A stretch of 64,000 nt of DNA from assembly GCA_964016885.1 (NCBI GenBank), contig OZ024743.1:31682001-31746000 (forward strand), written 5' to 3'. The DNA comes from Eledone cirrhosa (lineage: Eukaryota). The position numbers and the translations under genes were made by a program. Positions 11,598 to 64,000 of the stretch are shown one piece after another. The number at the start of each line of letters is the position of its first letter. Position 1 is the first letter of the stretch. Under the pieces are notes generated by a model. That model saw only the letters and a program-made list of their open reading frames with translations. It had not been told where the DNA came from and made no database searches.

Positions 11598-12167
11598 ATT
11601 ATTAAATCCATATCATAATTCCAGTTAACGATGGCACCTATAGTCAAATTTTGAAAGTTTATATAAAAGAATTTACCATCTTAATATCCTATTTTCCCCT
11701 GTACACATGCCCATCAAAACACACTGCATGTTATCTATTTAGTTAGAAGCAAATCAAGTTTGTGTAATTAACATTATGTATTAAATCACAAAAACATACG
11801 TTTGCATGTTATATAATGTTATGGATAAATAGCTTATAATTCCTTACGTATCTACTCAAAGACTGTGTGTCATAAAGATTATGAACTTGTAGTAAGTTCA
11901 AATGAAATGAGTTAGACAAAAGAAGCATTTTGGCATTTTCTCTCAATGAACTAAATTGCAATAAATACAAGAAAGTTTATATATTATGATTGGTGTTTCT
12001 GCAGCTGAAGTAAATTATATGTGGCTATATTAATCTTATATGGTTGATACGCTTGAGATATGCATCACATTTCACTTTGCGCTAAAATGCATAATTTCTA
12101 TCTATGAAATCTTTATGTCTTGAAGGTACAAATTTACACACATGTGGTAATATCTAATATATATTGA

Positions 12168-13051
12168 TACGAGGTGTGTCAGAAAAGTTCCAGGACTGAT
12201 GTCACAAAAGATGTGTTTCAAACCCAAACTTCACACTAATAGTTTTCTCCTTCAAAGGAATCCCGTTGGAGTATGTAACTGTAATCTTAAATCTCTGCAA
12301 CGATCAAACTTTTTTCTTCATAATTGTATATAAATGTCCTCTGTTTCAGGTCGTCAAGCAATGAGCACAGAACAACGAACATTGAAGTTTCTGGTACGGT
12401 TGGGGAAAAACTCCATCAGAAAAACTGGGATTGCTGCAGCAAGTGTATGGAGATCAGACTATGTCACGCTCACGTGTGTTTGAGTGGTGCAAGATGACCC
12501 CAGGAGCGGAATGCCCTCAACAACCAGAACTGAGGTCAACGTTGAGCGCGTCAGGCAGATGGTGCGTAGCGATCGTCGGCTGACTGTTCGACTGATGGCA
12601 AATGAGCTGCGCATGAATCGGGACAGCTTCTGGAAGATTCTCAGTGAAGAATTGGACATGCGGAAATTCTACGCGAAGATGATGCCAAAACTTCTGAACG
12701 ATGACCAGAAGGGTCGACGCATGCAAGTGTGCCAGGACATCCTCGAGCCTCTTGATACCGAATCAGACTTGCTAGGGACAGTCATCACCGGTGAATCATG
12801 GATCTTCGAGTACGACCCGGAGGGACGCGTTTTGAAGACGTGGACGCCATCAAAAAGGCCGTGACAACGGAACTGCAGAGGATCCCGGAAATATCCTTCC
12901 AGGAGTGCATGCAAGCGTGGCAGAAAAGGATAGAAAAGTGCATTAGACTCCAGGGGGATTACTTTGAAGGAGAAAACTCTTAGTGTGAAGTTTGGGCTTG
13001 AAATAATTCTTTTGTGACATCAGTCCTGGAACGTTTCTGACACACCTCGTA
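12168..13051 (+). mobile_element. Non-autonomous mariner (Tc1/mariner) element, internally deleted, ~103-bp TIRs, TA TSD
   Basis: TA|cgaggtgtgtcagaaaagttcc...ggaacgtttctgacacacctcg|TA; transposase remnants DDPRSG, AKMMPKLL, WIFEYDPE, RFEDV...LQGDYFEG. Confidence 0.92.
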
Positions 13052-14030
13052 TACCCTGTGGGCTGGTGAGTCAATTATGAATATATACGGTATTCATCAG
13101 TCAGCTAAATCAGGAGTCTGGCTAGATGTTTCCCATTACAGCAATTCTGGGTCAATCGTGTAAGACAATTTACCTATGAAATAAGCTGTGATTGAGTAAT
13201 ACAAGACAGGAAATCACATTTTCACGAGCTGCATCACTGCAGAACTGGCAGTATTTTCAGATCCATGTACCTAAAGTGTAATATTACATTGGAAAAGATA
13301 TGTGTTATCTTAAATTATGCCGACACACGGAATAATGATCCAGTTTTAAAACGTATCCCCCACTATTCGCACGCCGTCTGAATGTGTACATATATTAATA
13401 AAATACAATAGAATATTTCGTATATATGCAACGGGATTTTATAATATGCGTTATTATACCGATTATCAAATGATTGCATCTGTTATAAGATGATTTAGAT
13501 ATATTTCCCGATGATTTGATCACATTCAAAACATATACACTGGTCAGAAATGACAAGATATGAAAATACTTCGTAATGTTTCATAGAACTCCACATAGTT
13601 TTGCCTATTCATTATATTCGCTAGTGACTGCACAATGGACCAGTTGCTGCATCTTAACCTAGCAACCTGATGGAACTGAACCTTAAATATTCCCGGTGTT
13701 ACAGTATCACCTTGTCGAAAAACATATTTGCAATACGCAAACCCGATATCTACAACAAGGCGTAAATAGAGTTGTATTGCATTGAAGCAGAAATCAAAAT
13801 AATTAAAGGGAAGATCTTATTAATGTTTCAATCGGCATATATTATAATGCATGTTAATTTGGATACGGATAATTCTGTATATTTGAATGCATCTACGCTC
13901 TCACATGACCATATGCAGGGATAGAAAGAGATATACATATGAATGCGAGAAGGAAAAGAGGAATCCCACAAAACAGATATTAGAGATGTCCTCACACACA
14001 CACACACACACACACAAACACGCACATACT

Positions 14031-14785: not shown

Positions 14786-14817
14786 TAAGATCAAAAGATG
14801 GTTAAAAGAGTTCCATG

Positions 14818-14888
14818 TATTTTATTATGCGCATTTCAAAAACAAATATCATCATGAGATGACATTTGCGTTTTCGTCAGATAAAATA
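14818..14888 (-). ncRNA. Minimal hammerhead ribozyme, canonical CUGACGA core
   Basis: Exact reverse complement of 16471-16541. Confidence 0.8.
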
Positions 14889-16470
14889 GGGAGAGATGAT
14901 ATGAAGGTTAAAAAACACTTGTGAATAGTGCAGTTTTAAATCAACATATGAAAAGTAATTTAAGATTGATGTGAGATATTGGGAAAAAATGAGGGTGGGT
15001 TGGTAAGGATGAAAAAGTGGAGGAGATGAGAGTAAAGAATGGTTGGGGTGGAGAATAATAACGAAGGATGAGATAGGAGGAGAGATGGGTGATAGAAAGA
15101 GAGAGATAGCCTTTATAACTGAGAAAAGTATATATTGTTTCACAGAGTGACGTTAAAAAGCCGTTGGAAGATAATATATAATTTAAAAGAATTCGATAAT
15201 TGATGAAGAGAAAAAAATAAATGAAGAGCAAAAAAAAAAAAAAAATTAAGAATAATATTAAATTAAGGTTTGTATATTGAAGGGTTTAATAATATGTGCG
15301 ATGAAAAGAAATTGTTAATATGTATTAAGAATAATATTAAATTAAGGTTTGTATATTGAAGGGTTTAATAATATGTGCGATGAAAAGACATTGTTAATAT
15401 GTTTTATTAAAATTAAAATATTAATGTTATTAAGGATATAGTGTGAAAATAAGTAGAAGTTTGGATGCATTATGAATTTAGATGAATTTTTTGACGTTAG
15501 ATTATTCCTGCACAGTTCATTATATTTTTCTCCCTTTCATGCTCGTCTAACTTTTACATATTACATATCACAATACATAAAGACAAACTTAAACCCTAAC
15601 TAATCTCCTTTATTACATTATAGTATTACCATTAGGAAATACTTCATAAACATATATATTTTGATGTTAGAGTCTTCTCTTCCTTAAACACTATTTTCTT
15701 CTTTGCTCTCTGCGCTCATTTGTAAACAAACTATTTACATATATTACGCATACATATTACATTACATAAAAACAAACTTAAACACTAACTAATTCCTCTA
15801 AATTCATAATTCATCCACTCTTCTACTTCTTTTCACATTATATCCTTAATAACATTAATATTTTAATTTTAATAATACATATTAACAAATTCTTTTCATC
15901 GCACATATTATTAAACCCTTCAATATACAAACCTTAATTTAATATTATTCTTAATACATATTAACAATTTCTTTTCATCGCACATATCATTAAACCCTTC
16001 AATATACAAACCTTAATTTAATATTATTCTTAATACATATTAACAATATCTTTTCATCGCACATATTATTAAACCCTTCAATATATAAACCTTAATTTAA
16101 TATTATTCTTAATTTTTTTATTTTTGCTCTTCATTTATTTTTTCTCTTCATCAATTTTCAAATTCTTTTAAATTATATATTATCTTCCAACGGCTTTTTA
16201 ATCTCTCTCAGTGAAACAATATATATTGTTCTCAGTTATAAAGGCTATCGCTCTCTTTCTATCACCCATCTCTCCTCCTATCTCATCCTTCCTTATTATA
16301 CTCCTCCCCCACCATTCCTTACTCTCATCTCCTCCTCTTTTTCATCCTTTCCACCACCCACCCCCCTCATTTTTTCCCAATATCACACATAAATCTTAAA
16401 TCACTTTTCATATGTTGATTTAAAACTGCACTATTCACAAGTATTTTTTAACCTTCATATCATGTCTCCC

Positions 16471-16541
16471 TATTTTATCTGACGAAAACGCAAATGTCAT
16501 CTCATGATGATATTTGTTTTTGAAATGCGCATAATAAAATA
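16471..16541 (+). ncRNA. Minimal hammerhead ribozyme, canonical CUGACGA core
   Basis: tattttat-CTGACGA-aaacgcaaatgtcat..atgatatttgttttt-GAAA-TGCGCA-TA-ataaaata; 8-bp stem I, long stem II, palindromic TGCGCA stem III, AUA site. Confidence 0.82.
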
Positions 16542-16665
16542 CATGGAACTCTTTTAACCATCTTTTGATCTTATATTATTATTTATACTCCAGTCCTACA
16601 AACTGTAGAATGCTACTTATCCGATATCTGCATTGCTTTATTGTAGTACAATAAAACTCACCTCT

Positions 16666-18394: not shown

Positions 18395-19706
18395 CAAGAC
18401 AGATACTATTCAGTGCATATCTAGAGATGCGCTAGTGATAAGACACCCAAATTCCAAGTCTTCCCATTTTATCTTTGCGCTGACAATACAACAGAACAAA
18501 TACGAATAAATGAGGAAAATATGTTTATTCAAAAATATAGACCAGCGTTAAATATAGTTTAATATACAGTGTTAAATATAGTTTAACATGGTTAGCATGT
18601 TATGGTGTTATGTTAACACCATAACATGCTAAACATCCAAACAGACATATACATACACGCACACACACATAACACCTATATTCGAAAATAAAAACCAGAT
18701 CTAAGTAAACCTTAACATACGTTAATACTCCAACACCTTAACATGCTAATCATACCCCCCCCCCCACACACACACATATCTCTCTCCCCCATTTCTACTA
18801 ATGGAATCATATTCCTACACACACACACACAAAAGTATATATATTCTCTCCATCTTAACATGCTAACTATACTCCCACACACACATATACACACACATAT
18901 AACACCCATACACACACATACCTCCTTCCCCCATTTCTACTAATAGAATCATCTTCCTACACACACACACACACACATACACACACACCAGCACGCAAAT
19001 AAAATACATATCTCTACTTTCTTTATTTCAATAGAAAGTCTGAATTTTGACACCCCAGCACATCAGCCATACTCTCTAAACCAGAACAATTCTCCCCATC
19101 CCTTTTCTACAAAAAAATTCCCAAATACCGGCGCGAAATTTAATGTACTTGTTCAATGCCAGTCATAATTTCATTTATAACCAATCAAATTACATTTATA
19201 AAAAAACCTTCTTCAGCCACTTTTTTTAAGTAAAAAGAAATTCAAACACCAACTGGCGCGAAAGTTGCTGTGCTTATTCACGTGACGACATCAACCAACC
19301 AAATTTCACTCATATATGAAAAAACGACCTGGCCACCCGCCCATTTTTTTTAAAGGCAAATATAACAAGAACTTTGTAACGCGAACTAGCGTGAAATTTA
19401 ATATACTTATTCACATGACAGTCATGAACCAACCAAATTACTTTTCTAAAAGCCTAGCATTTCGAACCACTTTTTCCCATATAAAACAGAAGTAACATTC
19501 GAACACCAAACATATGCGAGAAAAACCACAAACCCTGCATCTCAATTCTACTTTTGAAAACCACAAGAACTGTGAAACCAGTGAAAGAACCAAATAAATA
19601 TTTTTAAAAAGACTCCCGTTGCATTTTCGATTTCATCATTTTTCCTTATACTTTCAGTCGTGTAGGACATCTCGTTTTTTTTTCATTTTGTAAAAAAACC
19701 TAATTT

Positions 19707-28978: not shown

Positions 28979-29242
28979 TATGTTTATTAGGAAAATATGT
29001 TTATTCAAAAATATAGACCAACATTAAATAAGGTTTAATATACATTATGTCAACACCACAATATGACATACACACACACACATAACACCTACTTTAGAAA
29101 ATAAAAACCCGAACTAAATAAACCTTAAACATACGTTTGCACTGGCAATACAACAGCAAACACGAAAAAGTCAGGAAAATATGTTCATTCAAAAATATTC
29201 CTACTAAAGGAATCATTTTCCTACACACACACATACACACAC

Positions 29243-29273
<31 letters not shown>

Positions 29274-30200
29274 TCTCTTCATCTTAACATGCTAACCATA
29301 CTCCCACACACATAACACCCATACACACACATAACACCCATACACACACATAAAAACCCCCACACCTACAACACCCTCCCCATTTCTACTAATAGAACCA
29401 CTTTCCTACACACATATATATATACACACACACAAAAAATATATATTCTCTCTATCTAACATACTCGCACACACACACATAACACCCATATACACACACA
29501 CACAACTCCCTCCCCCATCTCTACTAATAGAATCATCTTCCAATACACACATACACACACACACATATACACACACACAAGCACACAAATATACACATAT
29601 CTTCAGTCTCAATAGAAAATCTGAACTCTGACACCTGAACTCTGACAGCTGGCCATATTCACTGAACCAGAACATTTCTCCCAATCCCTTTTCCCTTGAC
29701 CACTATCTCTCCATTGTCATAACATTCACTATAAAGACTACAGAATAGTTTTCCAAATAAGGGCGCAAAAATGTAATGAAAACTTGTTCACGTGACAGCC
29801 AAATTTCATTTATAACCAACCAAAAAAAAGCCTTCGTGAGCCTCATTTTTTCAAGTAAAAAGAAATTCAAACACTCATATATGAAAAAACAACCTGTGAC
29901 AACCCCCCCCCCCTCTCTTATTTGAAGAACTATTGTAACGCGAACTGGCGCGAAATTTATTATAATTATTGACAAACCAATCAAATTACTTCTCGAAAAA
30001 CCTGGTTTTCGAGCCAGTTTTTCCATATAAAACAAGTAACATTTAGAGACCAACCAGATGTGAGAAAAACCACAGACCCTCCATCTCAACTCACCTTTTG
30101 AAAAGCAGAAGAACTGCGAAACCGGTAAAGGAACCAAATAAATATATATATTTTTTTTAAAAATAAGACTTCAGTTGCATTTTCGATTTCATCCCTTTTT
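28975..30200 (+). mobile_element. Neptune-type PLE 3' end, same family as 18391-19710
   Basis: Shares gaaaatatgtttattcaaaaatatagacca, the CA-rich tract, ggcgcgaaattt subrepeats and the gttgcattttcgatttcatc end; flanked by (TA)n. Confidence 0.8.
30094..30131 (+). ncRNA. Hammerhead ribozyme motif with U3:A8 covariant core (UUGAAAA)
   Basis: cctt-TTGAAAA-gcag-aagaa-ctgc-GAAA-CCGG-TA-aagg; stem I cctt/aagg, stem II gcag/ctgc, palindromic CCGG, GUA site. Confidence 0.72.
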
Positions 30201-30426
30201 CTCTCTCTCTCTATATATATATATAAATTCAATACTACAACGAATATGGACTAGTATCTGAATTATTTCAAGGATGACCAGAATCTCACGTCTGCTCGTC
30301 AAGATTCGTAGCTTTCAGAACAAGACTGCTACACCAACATGATCATTCAGTAAAGAGAGAGACCACTTGTTCGTGATGTCCTAGTCGTCTAGGGAGAGAG
30401 AGGGGGGAGATGAGACAGACAGACTA

Positions 30427-34039: not shown

Positions 34040-36590
34040 TGAATATAAAATGAAAGTGATTTTTTAAAAAAAGGAATTTATTAGGTATTGACGTATGTTT
34101 CTGTAACAGACTGAATACCTATGTATCGCTGTTTGCGTAATCATGTAATGTTAGCAAGTATTCGATTGCAAATGTATAATCAGTTGTCACTTATTCAGAG
34201 ATTTCGGATAAATTGGATAAAATCAGAAAAATTGAAGTATTTATATTAGTAGTAGGGGAAGAAACAGAGGGGATTGTATATGACAGATGGTAAATTAATT
34301 TACTGCTAAACAAGTATATAATGGGTTTCTAATGAGAATACCATGAGTAAATCTAAATAAGAATTTTGGGAGTGCCAATTTTAAACTCTACTTGACCAAC
34401 TGGACAGTGGACAGGGCTGGTCATTTGGTGCAGTAGTATTAATTATAAAGTGTCAATTGGGGAAGGGGGAGATTTCGATTGCTACTAAATAACATCAATG
34501 CTAGTAGCCAGCTGGTATATGCATTAGGGAATTGAATCAAGAAATCAGAAATCTCATTTTATCTATAGCAGTTTGTATTAAAAGGTAAATAATAGAAGAG
34601 TTGATAGAATTAAGACTAATAAAGAATGTTAATATCTATTTTGACAATCAAACGGGGATAGAGACAGGCGTTCAATCCTGGTAGTATTTATAATATGAAA
34701 ATGTAGATTTTAAGCGATGGTTACAGTATAACGATCGCTCTATTCTGTTATTTAATAAAATGTTTTTGTATTTCATAATACAAAATAATTCTACATTACA
34801 TAATTTACAAAATTCCTGTCCATGGGTATATTATATCCCATTTTAGGTGAAATTGTTGGTTATTTTCACGCAGCTGCCAAGCCTTGTCTGCGAGTGTTGT
34901 TACATAACGCTGGTTTTCATGTTTTATCGAGTAACGATGTCTATAAAGGCGTGATTTAAAGGAGGTGGCTGTAGATCCTACATAGTACCACTTCTGTCTA
35001 TCCGATTCGATAGTACATTTGTATACGATGTTGCGTTCAAGACATTGATTGTTCAACGGACACATTCCTGGTTGGACACAGTTGCAATTATAATTTTGCG
35101 TTGTTGTATTGCCATGGATGGGTTGATGAGGTTGCTTATGTAGGACAGGATGTTGTTTGTTGTTTTGTGATGTTATAGCTAATGTTTTACGTGTATTGTT
35201 ATGTGTTGGAAGGCGTTTATACAACCGTTTTGCGTTAAGCTTTTTTATATGTTGTTCAATATTAGGGGTGGTTGAATATGAAAGTCGAATAGTGTTAGGG
35301 TTTAATATTTTATTATATTTATGTGATGTTGGAAAGTGTTTTTTAACTAATCGAAAGAATTTTGAGGGTAGATTGGTTTTAATAGAGTTGTTATAAACCG
35401 GGTTGTACCAAATATACTCCTTACATGGCCTTCTGTTTGGTGGTGTGCGACTATTATTGTGTCTATTGCGGTAGTGTATGTATGGTGGTGATTCTGTGCT
35501 ATTTCTACTCCTATGGGATTTATTTTGGGTGTTTTGGTGATCTTTGACTATATACTCTATATTATCTAGGTGACCGGCTTTCCTAAGTGCATCATCATAA
35601 TATTCGGCATGTTCTTTGAAGGTTTGTTGGTTGGACGACAGGCGGGAGATTCTAAGAGAAACATTTCTAGGGATGGATTTAATTATAGAGAGTGGATGGT
35701 TAGAACTCGTATTTACATATTTAAGGTTCTCATTTAGTTTATGGAACGGTATAATCGTATCTGTATTGAGATTGAAAGTAACATCAAGGAAATTGACCTC
35801 TTTGAGGTTATATTCAAATGTAATATTTAATCCTAGTTCCTTAAAAAGCTTTCTGATATTTTTACGCATCCTTTCTAAATTCTGGTTATTCATTTGCTTA
35901 ACTAATAGGAGCGCATCGTCACGGTAGATTCCACCGTGGAGATCCTTGAATTTTCCTTGTAATCTGTGGGTGATATAAATTCCCACAAGATCTGTTACTT
36001 CCGCCGAATCATTAGAACCCATAGTGATATCAAAATTAGAAGGTCTATCTTTGCGAACCCAGTAGCTATCATCGAATTTAACTATAGTTTTCTTCGCTTC
36101 CATAATAATTTTAATTTCAGCATCCGTAAGGTCGGAATTATCCTTAGCGAACGAAAGCGCTTCATGTAGAGTATCAGGTGAAATTGAGGAATAATATTCA
36201 TCAATATCAAACTGAATAAATTTTGATTTTTTTCTTATCAGTAATGTTATTAAACCATCTTATTGCTTCATGAGTGTTACCCCATAGTTTAATCTCTACT
36301 TTAACCTTAACTTGGGGGATAATTCTGTCTAGTATATATTTGCTAATTTTGCCTATATCAGATTTAGAGGGGCATATAAGTCTAATATTAGGGTTAGTAT
36401 CGAAGTTTACCTTGTGGTCCTTCAGGTTGAACGATGGTATAGCTGGTGTTAAGGGTTGCGTTCTATCGTCAATACAAAGTTTTTTAACAATATCACCTAG
36501 AATATATTCCCTTTTTGCCTGAATAGGTATGTTTTTTAACGACATATCCAATTGGTGCCTTTCCATTTTAGAGGCGTATGCTGAATTAGT
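34040..36590 (-). mobile_element. Naiad-type Penelope-like retroelement (RT + GIY-YIG), decayed
   Basis: N-terminal SLKNIPI, LKDHK..F..NP.IRLICPSKSDIG, FDITMGS.DSAEVTDLVG, YRDDAL, CNC-x5-CPL-x3-C, IVY...YYVG; boundaries approximate. Confidence 0.9.
34673..36566 (-). pseudogene. PLE RT/GIY-YIG polyprotein pseudogene
   Basis: ORFs 36207-36566 and 34805-36103 joined by an A-run frameshift; a further frameshift near 34810 continues CKLCNVELFCIMKYKNILLNNRIERSLYCNHR; ~420 nt missing after the N-terminus relative to the 46-48.8 kb copy. Confidence 0.88.
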
Positions 36591-36623
36591 TATATATATA
36601 TATATATAGTTATATATATAGTC

Positions 36624-36660
<37 letters not shown>

Positions 36661-36769
36661 TGGGTGGAAAGAAGGAGTAAGAGAGAGAACGTTCAAGAAA
36701 AAAAGGCCGAACACAATGATGTATATATATATATATAATAATAATAATATTATTATTTATACTTATATA

Positions 36770-41777: not shown

Positions 41778-41999
41778 ATAAAAGATAGAAGGCCATATCG
41801 AGTTGATTCAGGTTTATTTGAAACTCCGTTATACATATTGCACTGAGGAGTATCAGTTATGATAACCTGAGCTTTTCTGACTGTAAAAGAACTATAAAAA
41901 CATTGAAAGTTTAAAAAAGAACTATACATTTCGAATGATACAATAATTTCTTCGAAAAAGATTTTCTTTTCTTCACACATTATAATCAAAACATGTATA

Positions 42000-43222
42000 C
42001 AGGCTTCGACAACTACAGACTCTCAGGAGCCGACTAGGCTTGCTCAACGGCCACCCAGCTCTCTTTCTGTTGAGAAACTACTTCACCATGCCGAAGCTCC
42101 TCTCTACCCTCGCAGTGCTCCGTGCTACACCCTCACATCTCTCCTCGCTGACCTCGATACTTGTATCCGAGCAGCAGCGGAGGAGATATGCAACGTCAAG
42201 TTTGACGATATTGGATGGCAACAGGCCACTTTACCTGTCAGGTATGGCGGCCTTGGCCTCCGATCCCCGATCTTGCTGGCTTTGCCGGCGTATCTTTCGT
42301 CGGTAACCTCGTGCCGCGTCCTCGTCAGCAGGGTTCTTCTAAACACAATAGAACCCTCTGTGTTCAGAGAACGTGAGCCTTTCTGTGAGGCGTGGGACCG
42401 ACTGGGACTTAGCCCAGCAGACGTCCCTCCTCCTTCTCCTCCTGTTGACGTCAAGTCCTCCAAAAGCACTTGGGATGCCATCCAGTGCAGCTTGGCCTCA
42501 GACAGGCTCACGCGCCAGCTCGACCATCACCGCATTGCCTGCTTTCGTGCGTCCTCCAAACCCCACAGTGGTGCCTAGCTTCATGCCTTGCTCACCTTCT
42601 CCAATGGCACGGAGCTAGACAACAATAGCCTGCGCATCGGCGTTTCTTTTAGGCTCGGTTTCCGGATGTGCGAGCCACACCAATATCGTTGCGGATCAGC
42701 CGTGGACTCTTTCGGCCCCCACACGCTGTCCTGTCGCCACAGTGCCGGCCGCCTTCCACGCCATGCTGCCCTCAACGAGGTCATAAAGCATGGACGGGAC
42801 GCTGCGAGCTTCCCTTCCCAGCTCGAGCCGGTGAGGCTTTACCGAGGGGACATAAAAAGGCCAGATGGCATGACCATCTTCCAGTTCCGCGGTGGAAAAC
42901 CCCTGGTCTGGGATGCTACTTGGATCGACACTTTCTTCAGCCGCAACCCGGTCAGTCTGCCACTAACCCAGGTTCTGCTGCACGTCGGGCTAAGGAGGCC
43001 AAGCTCCAAAAATACCGGTCACTCTCCGACAGGTTTGCGGTTGTACCCCTAGCAGTGGAGACTTCTGGTGTCCTCGGCCCCAGGGCTACCTCACTACTCA
43101 CCACCATGGGCGCTGAGCTGGCCAGCCGCAGGTGTGAACCCCACGAGTTGGAGTGGCTTTTCCAGCTCGTCTCCCTTGCCGTCCTCCGCGGGAACGCCTT
43201 TTCCATCCTGTTCACCGGTTCT
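42000..43222 (+). mobile_element. CRE-like non-LTR retrotransposon 3' fragment with restriction-like endonuclease
   Basis: WWQQATLPVRYGGLGL (RT thumb), degenerate zinc knuckle RCG..D..G.H.LSC, RHAALN, KRPDG...WDAT..DT, K..KY, PLAVETSG.LG, RGNA; GC-rich; frameshifts. Confidence 0.85.
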
Positions 43223-44417
43223 GTGTGTGTTTGTGGAGGGTTGCATCGTGTAACATTCCGTATTTAGGTATCCAGATTAATGGTGTTAGGGTATTATTAC
43301 TACATACACATCTATGAATGATTAAAGAAGAAAGTGTGAACAAAAATAAAAATAAAAATAACCAGTAAGGCATATTTCAACATTTCATCATGTGAAGGTT
43401 ATGTGCTGTCGTATCCAAGCACGGAAGGGGAAGTTGACTAGCAGTTCGTTACAAGCAATTATGCAAGCACGTGAGTACAGGCAGCCTATGCATTGTGTAC
43501 GTTTACATGGAAGATACAATAGCAGTAGCCATGTGCGGCTGCAGATATTTTCCAGGGTGGGTAGTTAGTATTTAGCGACTACTGAATCGAAGTAATTAAT
43601 GATTCGAGGTGCAATAAGCTGAACAAATGGAGGTGTTAGAGGAGGAATCGTACAGCTGTCTAAGGAAAGTGGAGTGCTAGGCTGTCAATAAAAAGGAAAG
43701 ACAAATGTATCAACACAAAGAAGCACTTGAGGGTTTCGGAGTTAAATAATTAAATAGTCGGTAAAAGTTGGGGTACAGGGTTGAAGTCTATGGACAATGT
43801 TGACTATATTCTAAGGAATATTTTACATATATTGTGCCTACATGTGCTGAAGAAGTCTGCACGTTATTTATTTCCACCATTAATAATATACAAACGTTCG
43901 GTAGTGCACAGATCACAACCACACGAACAATCTCCACACACGTACGATGGCGCGACTACATGGCAGCGTTGTCCATGACAGAGAGCATTGTACTCCATCA
44001 TGTTTAAGCCTCCATATGAACTCGGATATTGTCGCGTATCCATCCGGTTAAAGGAGTTGCGATATTATACCACCTAACCTTAAACCTGGTGGCTGAGACG
44101 CCAATATATCTGTATATTATTTCACTAGTGGTAATCCTACACCCAATATGCCTTCGGCTATTACATCTGCAATTTAAGCGCGTACGATGCAGAGTCTGCT
44201 TGCACTCGCATGCTTGCCAATTTGCATTGCAAAAATATCTCTGTAGGTGGGAAATTATGTATATATCAGTATTTGTATACGGCTATGCGTGAGTTCAGTT
44301 GTTTCTTATGAAGTCCAATGGCAACTTCTTCTTCCGCCTTTTAAGGGTTTTCATCCTTTTTTATATGGTATCTTTATAGCACTTTTGCGCTTGAGCATCA
44401 TATATATATATATATAT

Positions 44418-44842
<425 letters not shown>

Positions 44843-47800
44843 ATACTATTTATAGTTATGTATATAGTATAAACAACTATAAACAGGGAGGTCAGTAATT
44901 TCCTACTACCTTATTACCAGTAAGAGTAATAGCTCAATGTAAGAACATCAGTTGTTTAACAGAGCAGGAAAATAAATAAATTAGACAATTATCAAATTTG
45001 TGTTCAAATCATTTAATAGCTGACAATCGTTTCTTTCAAGCTCTCATTTGGAGCAATTGGAGCATTATCAATGTTTGTACATTTAATTAACCTCCTATTC
45101 AACTGAACAATAATATAGATACATATATATTGATGTTGTGAGCAACAGTTTCGTATTTACAGGGTGGAATGGGTGTGAGATATATTTTACGAGAATTGTA
45201 CCAAAATTCAAATTCAAATTAAAAGCAGAGTGGAATACATGCAACAGATAATACAAGAGAGTAGTCTAATAATTAAAGAGGCGTTGTGAAAGGAGATTTG
45301 AGAAAGAAAGAGTTCATTAGCAATACAAATCCATGTGTGTAGAAAGTGCACATGCGTTAGTCATATATATGAGAAGGAAATAAACAAAGTTATTATGCAT
45401 ATATAGATAAATAAATACTGTATTTTAAGCAAAAATGTAATGTATTAAAATCTAAGGAGAACGTAATATGTTGATAGTGTTTGAATGTGTGTGTGTTGAG
45501 GAGAATAAAGTTATTGCAGTCTCTTCCATTACATATGTTGAATTATATTTTAGTTAATGTTTATATTGAATGTTTAAGTTAGTTAAATCAATGGATTGTA
45601 AATTAGTCTTGTTGTATTCATATTCATGGTCTATAGTTGTTCAACAGGTAGGTTTTCCAACGGTTAAAATTTCTGGAAGTGAGTAAGGGGAGCTAATGCG
45701 TAAGGGGAGCTAACTAGCTAATTCAATTCAGTTATTTAAATCGTTGCTCTAATACACATTATAATGTGATAAAATTGAATCTCTATTACATAATGCTATA
45801 CATTTATACTTGATTTTAAACACAGTGTATTTTATTATAATACATTAAAGGTCGCTTAAGATTGTTATCTATTCATTACTGGACACGATATACGTTATGG
45901 AAAATAGCTGCTTATATATCCAAATAGATATATCATTTGTGTAATAATATACATTACTGTTTAAAAATTAATCCCTTATATACAATGCTGTTACATTATA
46001 TATTTAATTATAAATGTATATATACTTTTTTATTATTACATTGTGTTAAAGGTAGATCCCTTATATACATGTTATTAATTTAAGTATTTAATTATATAAA
46101 TATATATATAGTTTATTATTACATATTACATTAAATGTCTCTACATGTTAAATATCCATTACTTTATATAATATAATTAAGGTATATTAGTTATACCAAA
46201 AGGTGGTAACTTTATGTTTAATTCTATCAGTTATTGCAGAGTATAAGGTTAGAGGTACATGGGAGTTGTGTAGAGGAAAGAGCTGATCAAAGAGTGTGTA
46301 GCTGTAGGGGCTGATAAATTCTAGATGTGAAGTGTTAATGGTGGTGGGGAATTCAAATCTGACATTGATATATACTAACAGCTAGGTTTAAAGTTATGGA
46401 ATGAGTGACGGTATCGGTGTTGGCACGAGGAAAATGTCTCTGACTTTCTATTAAGGAGGTCTGGTTTCGAAAAGAGTATAGTATGGGTCTCTAGAAGACA
46501 GAGCTTACATAATTTATTCGGTGGTTTATACGATGAGGCCCTATCTACTACTTCCCATTGCAGTGTAAATGGTCTATTCCTAGTTTTCAGAGAGTGTGCG
46601 TAGCTAAATAAAGAAGTGGAGTTGGCTAGATTGTGTTTTTTGAAAGAGTGGAGATGTGAGTTGTATCTTGTCTTGAAGCTCTTCGAAGTAGAGCCGATAT
46701 ATGTTTTAGAAGAATTGTTTGCGTTAACGGTGCATGAGTAGATGATGTATTTGGTTAAGCAATTATTACCTAAGGGGCAAGTTCTATTAGTTCTACAGTT
46801 ACATTTATTCTGGATGTTAGCTTGCCGGTTCCTATGTTGTGAAGAATTCTGGTTGCTAGGGATAACACTAGGGTAATGATGTCTGTCATTCGTATTGTTA
46901 TTGATTTCATTATTGCTATTATCATTATTACTATTATTACTACAATTGTTTATATGTACTAAGTTTACCTCCTGTTGTGTTTTAATTAGTTGGAAATAAT
47001 TATTAATCCTCCTGTTATTACTACTAGCTATATGGTATGCTATATTAGGTGTGGTGGGGTATGAGATTTTAATGGTATTTTTATTGATAAGGTAATGGTA
47101 CTTGTGGCCGGGCGGGAAGTTTTTTCTAAGATTGAGAAGAAAGCCTTAGGCAAGTTGGTAGAGACGTTTAGATTGAAAGGGGGATTGAAGAATGTATTAG
47201 TTCTCCTTCTATTTTTGTTTTTAGTACTGTTTTTATAGCTATTTATATCCTTGTTTATATTATTATTGTGGTATTTACTTTGGCGCGAGTTAAGTTTGGT
47301 ATTACCCTTCGTCCTAGAGTTATAGTGGCTTGTGTTTTTATTATTTTTCCTCATGGCCATATTATGAGAAATAATGTTGTAGCTATGTGATTTTATAGGT
47401 AGGAATTCAATCTCATTCTTATGTCCTGATTTAAATAAGGCCTCATTATAGTATTGTGAATTATTGTTAAATATGGTTTCATTATATGATAGATTAGAGA
47501 TTATATTAGATATTCCTTTAATAATTCAGTTTAATATGAATTTAGGGTGGTTAGAGTTGGTATTCACATAAAATAGTTTTTCGTTAGGTTTATGATAGGG
47601 TGTGTATATTTTAGTGTCTAGGCAAAGGGTAGCATGAAGGATGTTAACGTTTTTAGTGTTTTTATCTAAGGTGATACTTAAGTTGAAGGTTTTGAAAATT
47701 TTGTGTAATTGTTTCCTAGTTTTTTCTATATTAAATTTGTTATAGTCTATAAGGATAAGTGCATCATCGCGGTATAAACGACTGTTGAGGCAGGGTAGGT

Positions 47801-49199
47801 TCTTATGAATTTCATTAAGTAGATATAGGCCCACCAAATCAGTGACCTGCGCCGAGCCACTAGATCCCATACTTATGTCAAAGTTGTTATGCGTTTCCTT
47901 GCGGGTCCATAATTGGTCTTCAAATGTAATTATGGTTTTTCGGGCCGCAAATATGACAACTATTTGGGATCTTGTCAGGTCACTATTGTTTATGGCCATA
48001 ATTAAAGCCGTATTTAATAGGATATGGGAAATAGAGTGTAGTATGGATTGATATCAAATTGTATGAATTTTTTATTTTTACTCTCTTTAATACCCTTGAA
48101 CCATTCAATAACTTCACCTGTATTTCCCCTTTGGTTAAGATATATTTTGTGCTTAAATTGTGGGATGATTCTATCTAGTATTTTCTTGCTGATAATACCA
48201 GTGTCAAATTTAGAAGGGCAAATTAGTCTAATTGAAGGGTTACTAATGAAGTCTTCTTTATGGTCCTTCAGAGACAATCTTGGGGGACAGGGGTGTATGG
48301 CTGTGTATGTCTCTGAAGTCCTAATTTACACACTATACTACGGCCTTCTATATTTATATCATCTAGGTTTTTAATAGTAGTTTTCTTATAGCTCCTATGC
48401 AGTTCCTTATATATACATTTTCTATAAGTATCGTAATCTAAGATATATATATTATTAGTTTTATCTGCATGTACTAGGACTTTTTTTATTTTTATGAAAT
48501 CCTTTAATAGTGGAGTTAAGTTAGTTTTATGAAGGTGTTGTTTCTATTATGATAGTTTTTGCATCTCATATTCTTAACTAGTTTAATTAGATCATTTTCA
48601 AAAGAGTTTAATATGGTGTTGTGAGGAGGGCTTTTAAATGTTTTAAAGCCATAAGTGTCGAAGTTATTTGTATCTCTGTTTTTGTATGAACGGTTTCTAT
48701 CGTAATGGAATGTCCTCCATCTCACTCTATTGATAAATGTGTTGACACTACTAATCAATAATTTTTCATATGTATCTTAAGGTGGTATTGGTATGTTCTT
48801 AGTAAACATAGGAAGGTAATCTTTGATAAGCATACTGGTAATTTAATGTATGTTAGCTCAACTGTATGAAGCAGTAAATAATAATAATACTATTTATAGT
48901 TATGTATATAGTATAACCAACTATAAACAGGAAGGTCAGTAATTTCCTACTGACTTATTAATTTGAATTTGAATGTTTGTACAATTCTCGTAAAATATGT
49001 CACACCCATTCCACCCTATAAATACGAAACTGTTGCTGGCAACATCAATATATATGTATCTATATTATTGTTCAGTTGAATAGGAGGTTAATTACATGTA
49101 CAAACATTGACAATGATCCGATGTCTCCAAAGGAGAGTTTGGAAGAAACGATTGTCCGCTATTAAATTATTTGAACACAACTTTGATAATTGTCTAATT

Positions 49200-50771: not shown

Positions 50772-50802
<31 letters not shown>

Positions 50803-50812
50803 AATATATATA

Positions 50813-51703
50813 TACGAGGTGTGTCAGAGATGTTCCCGGATTGATGTCACAAAAGATTTATTTCAAACCCAAACTTCACATTAAGAGTTTTCTCCTTCAA
50901 AGTAATCCCCCTGGAGTATGTAACTGTACTCTTAGCTCTCTGCAGCGATCAAACTTTTTTCTTCATAATTTTATATACATGTCCTCTGTTTCAGGTCGTC
51001 AAGCAATAAGCTCAGAGCAACGAACAAACTTGAAGTTTCTGGTAGGGTTGGGGAAAAGCTCCGTCAGAAACACTGGGATTGCGGCAGCAAGTGTATGGAG
51101 ATCAGACGATGTCACGCTCACGTGTTTTTGAGTGGTGGAAGATGACCCCAGGAGCGGAAGGCCATCAACAACCAGGACTGAGATCAACGTTGAGCGCGTC
51201 AGGCAGATGGTCCGTAGCGATCGTCGGCTGACTGTTCGACTAACCGCAAATGAGCTGCGCGTGAATCGGGACAGCGTCTGGAAGATTCTCACTGAAGATT
51301 TGGACATGCGGAAAGTCTGCGCGAAGATGGTGCCAAAACAGCTGAACGATGACCAGAAAGGGTCGACGCATAAAAGTGTGCCAGGACATCCTCGAGCGTC
51401 TTGAAACCGAACCAGACTTGCTAGGGACAGTCATCACCGGTGATGAGTCATGGATCTTCGAGTACGACCCTGAGGGGACCCGTTTTGAAGACGTGGACGA
51501 CATCAAAAAGGCGGTGACGACGGAAATGCGGAGGATCCCGGAAGAATCCTTCCAGGACTGCATGCAAGCGTGGCAGAAAAGGATGGAAAAGTGCATTAGA
51601 CTCCAGGGGATTACTTTGAAGGAGAAAACTCTTAGTGTGAAGTTTGCATTTGAAATAAATCTTTTGGGACATTAGTCCTGGAACTTTTCTGACACACCTC
51701 GTA
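50813..51703 (+). mobile_element. Non-autonomous mariner, second copy of the 12.2-kb family
   Basis: Same TIRs, TA TSD and the same internal deletions; ITGDESWIFEYDPE|GTRFEDV junction. Confidence 0.92.
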
Positions 51704-52046
51704 TATAAGTGTGTCTGTGTGTGTGAGTGCGTGTGTGTGTGTAACAGTGTATGCGTGTGTATGTAGGTGTTTGGGGGAATTGCATTTATATTGATTATAT
51801 AAAAGAGGCTTATTCGTCTGGATTAGATGCACATTAATCGTCAACCGCTTCAGTTAATATAGGTTCAGGTATTTCGACTTTGATCTAAAGCAAAGCCGAC
51901 ATCATGTTTACTCGACCGTGGCGAGTCTTTGATGAGAATTACCATTGCATCTTCCAGTGATATGTGAAGATTAAATAGATTCTTTTACACTTCATCATTT
52001 GGCATTATAGCTTGTCACTTTTATAAGTATGAGCATAAACACTCAT

Positions 52047-59111: not shown

Positions 59112-59585
59112 AAATTGAGGTTGGTAATGGCACATGGAATATATAAGAGACAGAATACTTTTTTGTGAAAAAACATATAATTTTATAAGGTAAGGAAATA
59201 ATAAAGAGTATAAAAAATGACCGGTTACGATGGGTCTGCAAAACCATCTTTTCAAATGTTGATTAATATTAAGAAAAATTAATAAGAAGAAGAGTTAAAA
59301 TTTGAGATTTGAAAATTCAAGTATAGAATTCATTGTAGGATTTCATAGTTTTCATCTTGGTAGCAGCTCGTTGACTGCTTCTGGTAGTGAATGAAAAGTT
59401 ATTTGGGGTCTGGATTATTTTATAAAGGTCAAATTTAGCAATGGCCAGATGGCCAGCTGCTGGTCAGTGAGGGAGTGGAAGCAATATACATACATATATC
59501 TTCCTGTGCTCGGTAGGAGAGGGGAGATTGATAGAAAGGGATTTAGTGCACTTACACCTATATATACACACATAACTTCATCCAC

Positions 59586-62268: not shown

Positions 62269-62785
62269 TATTCTTGAAACACACAAGATCCTTAAAAGTA
62301 AAAGACAACCCAAATCACTAAAACGCATTCTCACTGGACCAAATATACCCAAACCAATCCTCAACCCTACAGTTACCAAATGTGGTAGAACAAACTGTGG
62401 AACGTGCCTCTACCTCACTGAAGGACAAAAATTTACATTTAAAGATGGCCAAACATTTACAGTAAAAAACAATTTCACCTGCAACTCGGAGAACTTGATT
62501 TACGCAATAACTTGCGGTGGGTGCAAACACAACTACATAGGACAGACGGGCACCTCATTACGCAAAAGAATGACCATCCACCGCCAACAAATCCGGGACG
62601 CTAGCACAAGAAAAATCCCCTTGAGCAGCCATATTGCGAACTGCGCAGGTATGACACTACCCAACTTTAAAATCTTCCCCTTCTACAAGTGCTCAGATTC
62701 GTTCACACAGCAACAAAGAATAAACAAAGAAAATCTATTCCTTAACAAATTTAAACTAAAACTAAACGGGTTATCACCCCAATAG
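62269..62785 (+). pseudogene. Inverted duplicate of the GIY-YIG endonuclease coding segment (open frame, no native start)
   Basis: ORF 62240-62785 differs from 60535-61110 at only about three residues over the shared part. Confidence 0.85.
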
Positions 62786-63172
62786 AATTGTCATAAAATA
62801 TAAACACACATACGCACGGAGTGACAGATATATGTGTTTGTATGTGTGCATGTATATAATTATCACTACTATTAAAGACCAGAGACCAATTCTGTAGAAT
62901 CAGGTTTATTCGTTGACAGACCATGCCTTTGTGTAACCAACACATCCATGTTAAACCCTGCACGTACACACACATATATCTATATATATATGCGCACACA
63001 GAATTCACCACTGTCGGTTGCGGGGCCCAATCTACATGAAGAACTAAATGTGATCAGAATGACTTGTATTTTAATTTCACTGCCCTAACTTCTTATATTA
63101 TGGAAACAATATATGTGTATGTATGTATATATATATATTTGGAGGTCATTTCTCTGTGTGTGGGTGTATGTA

Positions 63173-63212
<40 letters not shown>

Positions 63213-63240
63213 TGCATGTGGATGTATGTATTGTGTGTGC

Positions 63241-63284
<44 letters not shown>

Positions 63285-63317
63285 GTGTATCTGGATGTAT
63301 GCGTATGTGTATATATA

Positions 63318-63348
<31 letters not shown>

Positions 63349-63503
63349 GTGTGTATGTGTATATATGTGTGTATGTATGTGTGTGTTTGTACGTGTGTAT
63401 GTATATATATGTGCGTGTGTATGTATGTGTGGGTGTGTGTATATATATCTGTATGTATGTGTGTGTATATATATGTATGTACACATATATATATATATAT
63501 ATA

Positions 63504-63562
<59 letters not shown>

Positions 63563-64000
63563 ATGTGCATATATGTGTGTGTGTATGTGTGTATGTATAT
63601 GTATGTGTGTGTGTATGTATGTGTGTCTATGTATATATATATGTATGTATGTGTGGATGAAGGTATGGGTGTATATATAGGTGTAAGTGCACTAAATCCC
63701 TTTCTATCAATCTCCCCTCTCCTACCGAGCACAGGAAGATATATGTATGTATATTGCTTCCACCCCCTCACTGACCAGCAGCTGGCCATCTGGCCATTGC
63801 TAAATTTGACCTTTATAAAATAACCCACACCCAAATAACTTCTCATTCACTACCAGAAGCAGTCAACGAGCTGCTACCAAGATGAAAACTACTATGAAAT
63901 CCCACAATGAGTTCTATACTTGAATTTTCAAACCTCAAATTTTAACTCTTCTTATTATTAATTTTTCTTAATATTAATCAACATTTGAAAAGATGGCTTT

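What the first reader, a model, noticed from the sequence alone, without database searches (positions are those of the whole stretch)
30094..30131. Neptune PLEs carry a U3:A8 covariant hammerhead (UUGAAAA...GAAA-CCGG-UH)
Seen: a complete minimal type-I hammerhead geometry (stem I cctt/aagg, stem II gcag/ctgc, GAAA, palindromic CCGG, GUA) with UUGAAAA in place of CUGANGA. The same core recurs at 44.6/44.7 kb, decayed at 19.55 kb, and in a different Neptune family at 59.2 kb with an unrelated stem II (gatgg/ccatc). Known: C3 and G8 form a Watson-Crick pair in the active fold, U3:A8 is a compensatory swap, and PLE terminal repeats carry minimal hammerheads. Inference: a fixed, clade-level variant ribozyme that CUGANGA-based searches would miss.
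Basis: partly seen in the sequence, partly recalled or inferred. Interest (0 to 1): 0.75.

Follow-up and report, generated by a model that had tools for sequence, protein, structure and literature searches.

The report
Penelope hammerhead with known U-A core
This is one of more than 11,000 copies of a small RNA motif at the end of a young Penelope-like jumping gene; it has the layout of a self-cutting hammerhead and likely cuts only weakly and in pairs, and its swapped U-A core pair is already published for such elements and is not a mark of the whole Neptune group, so it is an ordinary new example.

Summary
30094-30131 is a minimal type-I hammerhead layout with U3:A8. It is the family state: 11,625 exact copies, and 0 of 100 flank-anchored copies have C3 or G8. 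It lies 1.06 kb behind the stop codon of a Penelope-like element with Neptune-type architecture (RT, CX4CXXC linker, GIY-YIG). The 59.2-kb sister family also has U3:A8, though that copy carries a GUAA mutation.

U3-A8 is published in Penelope-like elements, with the same UUGAAAA (Cervera and De la Pena 2014). It is not Neptune-wide: all 4 linker-bearing outside relatives with a hammerhead, another linker-bearing family in this genome, and the published Neptune example have C3:G8. The swap needs at least four changes on an RT tree. Positions 3 and 8 pair in 30 of 30 outside loci, which supports a selected ribozyme fold.

Cutting is untested and likely weak. Helix III needs a dimer, U3 can mispair with A17, and most short inserted copies span the cut site.

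The scan noted U3-A8 Penelope hammerheads before in other genomes.

The parts
28986..30202 (+). 5'-truncated copy of Penelope-like family A: last codons of ORF2, 3' UTR, hammerhead, ending at about +75 to +79 from the cut site; flanked by (TA)n and (CT)n(TA)n
   Evidence: Aligns over 1.2 kb at 92% to L001, which carries the GIY-YIG C-terminus; full elements in L119-L122; ends
28991..29038 (+). Last 15 codons and stop of ORF2 (endonuclease C-terminus)
   Evidence: Sequence translates to the C-terminus of the 775-aa ORF2
30055..30066 (+). Hot spot of 5' ends of inserted copies (-73 to -62 from the cut site); inferred RNA start near 30057
   Evidence: 16 of 30 copies start here; summed contig depth rises several-fold here in X1 and X5; RNA start is inference
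30094..30131 (+). Minimal type-I hammerhead layout with U3:A8: stem I 30094-97/30128-31, core 30098-104, stem II 30105-117, GAAA 30118-121, palindrome 30121-126, predicted cut after 30127
   Evidence: folding
44587..44622 (-). Family A hammerhead (3-bp stem I subfamily), left arm of a fold-back insertion spanning about 44514-44830
44699..44728 (+). Family A hammerhead core, right arm of the fold-back; 3' strand of stem I deleted
19554..19584 (+). Decayed hammerhead of an older family A copy (aligned 19307-19646); stem II broken, G17
59219..59255 (-). Family B hammerhead, U3:A8, stem II gatgg/ccatc; this copy has GUAA instead of the family's GAAA
60535..62409 (-). Family B ORF2 remnant (RT, CX4CXXC linker, GIY-YIG) with two in-frame stops, about 1.28 kb upstream of its hammerhead
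62269..64000 (+). Inverted, 5'-truncated second arm of the family B insertion

Best explanation
The motif is the minimal hammerhead carried in the terminal repeat of a young, very abundant Penelope-like retrotransposon, with the core pair swapped from C3:G8 to U3:A8 in this family and its local relatives, and it likely cuts RNA only slowly and only as a dimer, probably with protein help. Shown: each full unit (about 4.7 kb) runs hammerhead, ORF1, ORF2 (RT-linker-GIY-YIG), 1.05-kb UTR, hammerhead. Helix III is only the palindrome ACCGGU. Inserted copies end at +79 or +148 behind the cut site, and short ones begin near -70. Inferred: (1) A read-through RNA, or two RNAs, bring two motifs together so that the palindromes form a 6-bp helix III. 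(2) U3 pairs with A8 as C3 does with G8, and the cut falls after A17 (30127). (3) In family A, U3 can instead pair with A17 and extend stem I, an analogue of the inhibitory C3-G17 pair, which would slow cutting further. (4) The element's RT starts at the two internal sites behind the motif and mostly copies uncut RNA back to its 5' end. Cutting would thus serve occasional RNA processing (unit-length or circular RNA) and not each insertion.
For: Family state. Linkage to RT-GIY-YIG ORFs. Selection on the fold: core and GAAA...GUH are kept across families A-E while stem II changes sequence and stays paired. In 96 outside loci, 30 gave a sense-strand motif (33 motifs against 1 on the antisense strand), and positions 3 and 8 were Watson-Crick in 30 of 30 (25 C:G, 3 U:A, 1 A:U, 1 G:C; 0 of 200,000 permutations, which ignore kinship). 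Dimer need: the monomer helix III is sterically impossible or unfavourable, and the dimer fold is -18.9 kcal/mol. Published minimal motifs show no monomer and low dimer activity. U3-A8 ribozymes are cited as active in vitro (second-hand). A Poseidon-element hammerhead cut only with its protein, was not needed for insertion, and RT started at two internal sites. U3:A17: the extended stem is 1.7 kcal/mol (monomer) and 1.4 kcal/mol (dimer) more stable; the C3-G17 trap is described in PMC3884650. Ends.
Against: No cleavage was measured. Stem I is short (4 bp in A, 3 bp in one A subfamily, 2 bp in B and C), and its pairing probability in the native monomer context is about 0.05. 5' junctions are about 2.3-fold more frequent in the 5 nt around the cut than in one control window 11 nt upstream, but there is no single-base peak at 30128 (16, 9, 17, 17, 16 events at 30126-30130), so the genome gives no clear footprint of cutting. 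Families A and B are so young that uniformity within them shows copying, not selection. The two motifs of a unit are 4.7 kb apart.
Confidence: 0.7

Rival explanations
1. In families A-C the motif is a catalytically dead remnant. It is carried along because it lies in the terminal repeat or is kept as a protein-binding or structural signal, and U3:A8 drifted in under AT pressure.
For: AT-rich surroundings; 2-4-bp stem I; U3:A17 mispairing; 16 of 30 copies span the site from -70; no single-base junction peak; cutting was dispensable for insertion in vitro in another element.
Against: Both positions changed together, and no family in this genome had a mismatched consensus among those sampled. All other core bases are kept across families whose ORF2 proteins are only 57% identical and whose stems differ. 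30 of 30 outside loci keep a 3:8 pair.
Confidence: 0.2
2. One reading: U3:A8 is a fixed, clade-level variant of Neptune elements that earlier searches missed.
For: Fixed in families A and B (sisters, SH-aLRT 100) and in older relatives C-E. Rfam gives no hammerhead hit.
Against: Nearest outside relatives L203 and L279, and L214/L285, have C3:G8. Family F in this genome has the linker and CUGAAGA. The published Neptune entry is CUGACGA. A U3-A8 descriptor was run in 2014. Rfam also missed the canonical 467-nt repeat at its gathering score, so the miss is not due to U3:A8.
Confidence: 0.05
3. The motif is an efficient ribozyme that routinely cuts the multimeric RNA to unit length, and the cut or circularised RNA is the normal template.
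For: One motif per unit at the unit boundary. A 2.3-fold excess of 5' junctions near the cut, and a few small duplications that begin at 30128. The model is proposed in PMC4209133.
Against: About 6,200 copies (16 of 30, scaled to 11,625) run from -70 across the site, against an excess of about 120 junctions near the cut (up to about 250 if the pattern filter hid half), that is 2-4%. A religated circle would not stop at -70.
Confidence: 0.05

Closest known systems
U3-A8 minimal hammerheads of Cercyon Penelope-like elements, Schistosoma mansoni (Cervera and De la Pena 2014, PMC4209133; main text parts 1-2 of 4 and supplement PDF parts 1-2 of 3 read; supplementary file 1 could not be searched)
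   Same: Type I, terminal-repeat location, palindromic helix III, U3-A8 with the identical UUGAAAA core, mostly solo truncated copies and inverted pairs 100-700 bp apart.
   Different: Here there is no bulged base between A9 and G10.1, helix III has a 2-nt palindromic insert (the D. virilis/shrimp type), stem II is 4-5 bp, and family A combines U3 with A17 (the listed U3 examples have U17 or G17). Copy number is about ten times higher, and the host has a Zn-linker and an upstream ORF1.
Natural U3-A8 hammerheads (Perreault et al. 2011, PMC3088659; passages read)
   Same: Same compensatory core swap, stated to be active in vitro on the basis of Przybilski and Hammann 2007 (not held, not read).
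   Different: The passages seen do not tie these examples to Penelope-like terminal repeats or to a helix III that needs a dimer.
Hammerhead of the anole Poseidon element PAc (Frangieh et al. 2024, PMC11167929; parts 1-2 of 4 read)
   Same: Motif just upstream of two fixed RT start sites that give a 'tail'; uncut RNA as the main template.
   Different: PAc has C3:G8, a single ORF starting inside the motif, and no Zn-linker. Here the two 3' ends lie in the 5' leader (+79/+148 in A, +110-113/+152 in B) before ORF1.
Neptune clade of endonuclease-bearing Penelope-like elements (Craig et al. 2021, PMC8557442; passages and section 11 read, Fig. 1 image not seen)
   Same: C-terminal GIY-YIG with CCHH, full CX2-5CXXC linker, (TA)n targets, partial tandems and inverted truncated arms.
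   Different: Clade placement was not tested against labelled references, and the paper itself finds Neptune paraphyletic. The only published Neptune hammerhead seen is C3:G8.

Membership tests
Type-I hammerhead ribozyme | Core N3 U4 G5 A6 N7 N8 A9 ... G12 A13 A14, A15.1-U16.1, H17 | tested here: met
   family state
Type-I hammerhead ribozyme | Watson-Crick pair between positions 3 and 8 | tested here: met
   U3:A8; covariation in 30 of 30 outside loci
Type-I hammerhead ribozyme | Stem II with G10.1-C11.1 | tested here: met
   4 bp in A; different paired sequences in B-E
Type-I hammerhead ribozyme | Stem I closing the motif | tested here: inconclusive
   4 bp here, 2-3 bp in related families; monomer pairing probability about 0.05
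Type-I hammerhead ribozyme | Site-specific self-cleavage after H17 | not testable with these tools
   Needs an assay; the junction footprint was inconclusive
Type-I hammerhead ribozyme | Match to an Rfam hammerhead model | tested here: not met
   No hit at E<=10; a canonical-core repeat of the same genome was also missed at the gathering score, so this does not discriminate
Minimal hammerheads of Penelope-like elements | Palindromic, near-absent helix III that needs a dimer | tested here: met
   ACCGGU
Minimal hammerheads of Penelope-like elements | Located in both terminal repeats flanking an RT/GIY-YIG ORF | tested here: met
   L121, L122, L123, L125; Pfam RVT_1 in both ORF2s and GIY-YIG in A's ORF2 and in B's window copy
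Neptune clade | C-terminal GIY-YIG with CCHH and upstream CX2-5CXXC linker | tested here: met
   C-X4-C-X2-C in both A and B
Neptune clade | Insertion into (TA)n; partial-tandem and inverted arms | tested here: met
Neptune clade | RT phylogeny grouping with named Neptune rather than Nematis references | not testable with these tools
   No labelled references were available; the tree has unlabelled rows
   4 of 4 outside, family F here, and the published entry are C3:G8

The most novel reading that the evidence does not exclude
In the most abundant family (over 11,000 copies) and most of family C, U3 comes with A17, so the core has a built-in off state (U3:A17 extends stem I over the cut site) that competes with the catalytic U3:A8 pair. 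This would be a natural switch that keeps the RNA uncut for reverse transcription until the element's own protein or a partner RNA flips it. Families B (U3/C17) and A (U3/A17) give a ready-made natural comparison. None of 30 outside motifs had A17, and two literature searches found no paper on a U3/A17 pair.
Probability: 0.2. Interest if true: 0.55.

Novelty: new member of a known kind. Interest (0 to 1): 0.22.

Why it matters
As found, it matters little: it adds a large, young, apparently still mobile example of a published hammerhead variant, and it reminds annotators to allow any 3:8 pair. The useful parts are three. All four Watson-Crick combinations at 3:8 turn up in Penelope-like loci. 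U3:A8 has arisen several times. And families with many intact ORFs and natural A17 versus C17 versions offer a clean way to test the open question of what these weak ribozymes do in the transposition cycle.

Tried and rejected
Rfam scans of the window (top 150 of 287 rows shown, none a hammerhead), of the motif and of four loci gave no hammerhead hit. The MALAT1 match at E 2.5 was taken as chance.

Sequencing runs: no RNA holder listed, which says nothing on expression. Contigs of four runs were laid on 29640-30200 only. None of the 40 listed differences falls in 30095-30151, 6 rows were not shown, and contigs cannot show RNA ends.

Viral contigs: no relative.

Cut-site footprint: the first control pattern (65 matches) excluded (TA)n junctions by its design and was discarded. 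The fair control (154 matches) against the test gave, after removing internal indels and duplications, 75 of 97 against 56 of 96 true junctions, about 211 against 90 genome-wide, without a single-base peak. A-rich microhomology, the excess of short copies and CpG decay of the control anchor can explain it, so it is inconclusive.

The tree is the quick version (the careful search did not finish). 5 of 96 outside loci were left out for under 230 aligned residues, and 66 of 96 had no hammerhead call, many because contigs end early.

The 316-nt repeat shows no relation to full family A or B elements beyond a flanking fragment at the edge of L121.

Papers not held: Lunse 2017, Przybilski and Hammann 2007, Arkhipova 2017. 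They may hold U3-A8 or U3/A17 data, or the Neptune ORF1 frameshift. The Hydra-type remnants at 34.8 and 46.4 kb were considered as the host of the motif and rejected.

Full report
Observation. The motif is present as described. 30094-30131 (+) gives stem I cctt/aagg, core UUGAAAA, stem II gcag/ctgc, GAAA, the palindrome ACCGGU and A17, with the predicted cut after 30127. Copies stand at 44.6 kb (-), 44.7 kb (+; 3' strand of stem I deleted) and, decayed, at 19.55 kb. The 59.2-kb motif has stem II gatgg/ccatc but reads GUAA. The window lies in a 3.0-Gb, microsatellite-rich animal assembly. An octopus-like host is my inference and that of earlier scan notes, and I did not test it.

Is U3:A8 the family state? 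Yes. The exact 29-mer occurs 11,625 times, the reversed control 0 times. A pattern anchored only on the flanks found 10,737 copies. Read by eye, 0 of the 100 listed have C3 or G8, and 4 have other damage in the core, one with an indel that blurs the reading. The 59.2-kb family (B) has 2,070 matches, 100 of 100 listed with A8 and GAAA, and U3 in 12 of 12 loci. Older relatives (C/D, 743 matches) gave 24 U:A, 6 single-change forms and 0 C:G in 30 loci. A small family E appears.

Host element. The window copy starts inside the last codons of an ORF (28991-29038), 1,060 nt before the core. Full copies run: hammerhead, about 200 nt, ORF1 (frame of about 410 codons, no Pfam match), an overlapping ORF2 in the -1 frame (775 aa; RVT_1 and GIY-YIG), 3' UTR, hammerhead. 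The units are about 4.7 kb. Family B is built the same way (777 aa; ORF2 57% and ORF1 35% identical to A), and both have many open full-length frames. Both carry a C-X4-C-X2-C linker and the CCHH motif, which is the Neptune architecture in PMC8557442 (passages). Nematis has a reduced linker, and I could not place the elements against labelled references.

Is it Neptune-wide? No. With an alignment of 39 ORF2 proteins I fetched 80 metagenome and 16 genome-collection loci. A descriptor free at positions 3 and 8 found motifs on the sense strand of 30 of 96 loci (33 motifs; 1 on the antisense strands): 25 C:G, 3 U:A, 1 A:U and 1 G:C. All 30 pair; 0 of 200,000 permutations did so, though kinship inflates this. 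On a quick RT tree of 93 rows, A and B are sisters (SH-aLRT 100). Their nearest relatives with a motif (L203, L279) have C3:G8, and U:A needs four changes, all four forced by branches with support of at least 95. The four outside loci with both a linker and a motif (L203, L279, L214, L285; the last two near-identical) are all C3:G8. Two of the U:A loci lack the linker and one could not be read. In this genome, family F has the linker and CUGAAGA (clade unresolved), and 9,940 canonical-core matches (control 246) start with 467-nt tandem repeats. A 316-nt non-coding tandem repeat has U3:A8 in 27 of 28 loci, with a compensatory change in helix III.

Literature. Perreault 2011 (passages) reports natural U3-A8 and cites in vitro activity. 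Cervera and De la Pena 2014 report U3-A8 in Cercyon elements, about 1,300 hits, list the core UUGAAAA, give CUGACGA for their one Neptune entry, and find no monomer and low dimer cleavage for a minimal motif. A full-text search for 'hammerhead' with 'U3-A8' returned only that paper. Searches for hammerhead, octopus and Penelope and for U3A8/U3-A17 forms gave nothing on this case, but Lunse 2017 and Przybilski 2007 are not held. Also seen: PMC6765202 and PMC7229834 (passages), bioRxiv 2026.07.22.740005 (part 1 of 5), PMC7151607 (one passage).

Mechanism. Shown by sequence and folding: a monomer helix III would need a 2-nt loop and is disallowed. Two copies form a 6-bp helix III at -18.9 kcal/mol, and pairing U3 with A17 is 1.4-1.7 kcal/mol more stable than the open core. 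A17 is present in 30 of 30 A and 17 of 24 C/D motifs, but in 0 of 12 B and 0 of 30 outside motifs. PMC3884650 (passages) describes the analogous C3-G17 pair as the presumed cause of inhibition. Copy ends: in family A, 9 of 30 end at +79 and 14 of 30 at +146 to +149, and 16 of 30 start at -73 to -62. In family B, 5 of 12 end at +110 to +113 and 7 of 12 at +152. This matches the two internal RT start sites and the uncut template found for PAc, whose hammerhead cut only with protein (PMC11167929). Inferred: transcription starts near 30057, RT starts at the two downstream sites, and short copies are uncut 5' repeats. Scaling gives about 6,200 such copies against an excess of roughly 120-250 junctions near the cut, so at most a few percent of these templates were cut, unless cut RNA is simply not used. 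There is no single-base peak at 30128, so cutting in vivo is neither shown nor excluded.

Verdict. This is a real, fixed, very abundant U3:A8 minimal hammerhead layout in two young Neptune-type families and their local relatives. It is a known variant in a known setting, not a clade marker, and probably a weak, dimer- and protein-dependent cutter (0.7). Earlier scan notes reached a similar verdict in other genomes; I had the paper and the counts before seeing them. Novelty: new member of a known kind. Interest 0.22.

Noticed in passing
L122:2430-2470, L125:2496-2536; outside L199, L200, L204, L207: ORF1 and ORF2 overlap in the -1 frame with a U UUU UUA slippery heptamer at the same place in families A and B and in 4 of 11 outside relatives checked: a likely programmed frameshift. 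PMC8557442's Fig. 1 legend mentions an optional frameshifted ORF1, but I could not see for which clade.
   Followed up: partly
L169-L198 (G000; 316-nt tandem units): Non-coding tandem repeat (retrozyme-like) with a U3:A8 core and a helix III showing a compensatory change between two variants; roughly 1,000 motifs.
   Followed up: partly
L246:1969 and L249:117: Single natural hammerhead layouts with A3:U8 and G3:C8 beside Penelope-like RT genes in metagenome contigs; family status not checked.
   Followed up: no
L089-L118 (G000): 467-nt tandem arrays with a canonical CUGAUGA hammerhead; all of the first 100 listed of 9,940 matches are of this repeat type.
   Followed up: no
L025, L078/L132, L127 (G000): Family F: Penelope-like element with a CX4CXXC linker and a canonical CUGAAGA hammerhead about 200 nt after the stop.
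   Followed up: partly
window 34805-36692 (-) and 46375-48053 (-): Two decayed Penelope-like remnants with the CxCX5C linker described for the Hydra clade.
   Followed up: partly
window 14880 (-), 16479 (+), 26910 (+): Canonical-core hammerhead candidates with an 8-bp stem I; the first two are arms of a fold-back element at 14789-16570.
   Followed up: no
L122:1108-1160, L324, L419: Small tandem duplications that begin at or next to the first base after the predicted cut; possible template jumps at a cut RNA end.
   Followed up: partly
L279-L294: Contigs filed in bacterial genome bins carry animal-type Penelope-like elements, several with hammerheads; likely host DNA in the bins.
   Followed up: no
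window 41907-43267 (+): GC-rich broken reading frames that look like another retroelement; no Pfam match.
   Followed up: no
window 12150-13053 and 50796-51705: Two 91% identical copies of a 0.9-kb element with about 105-nt terminal inverted repeats and a weak HTH match.
   Followed up: no
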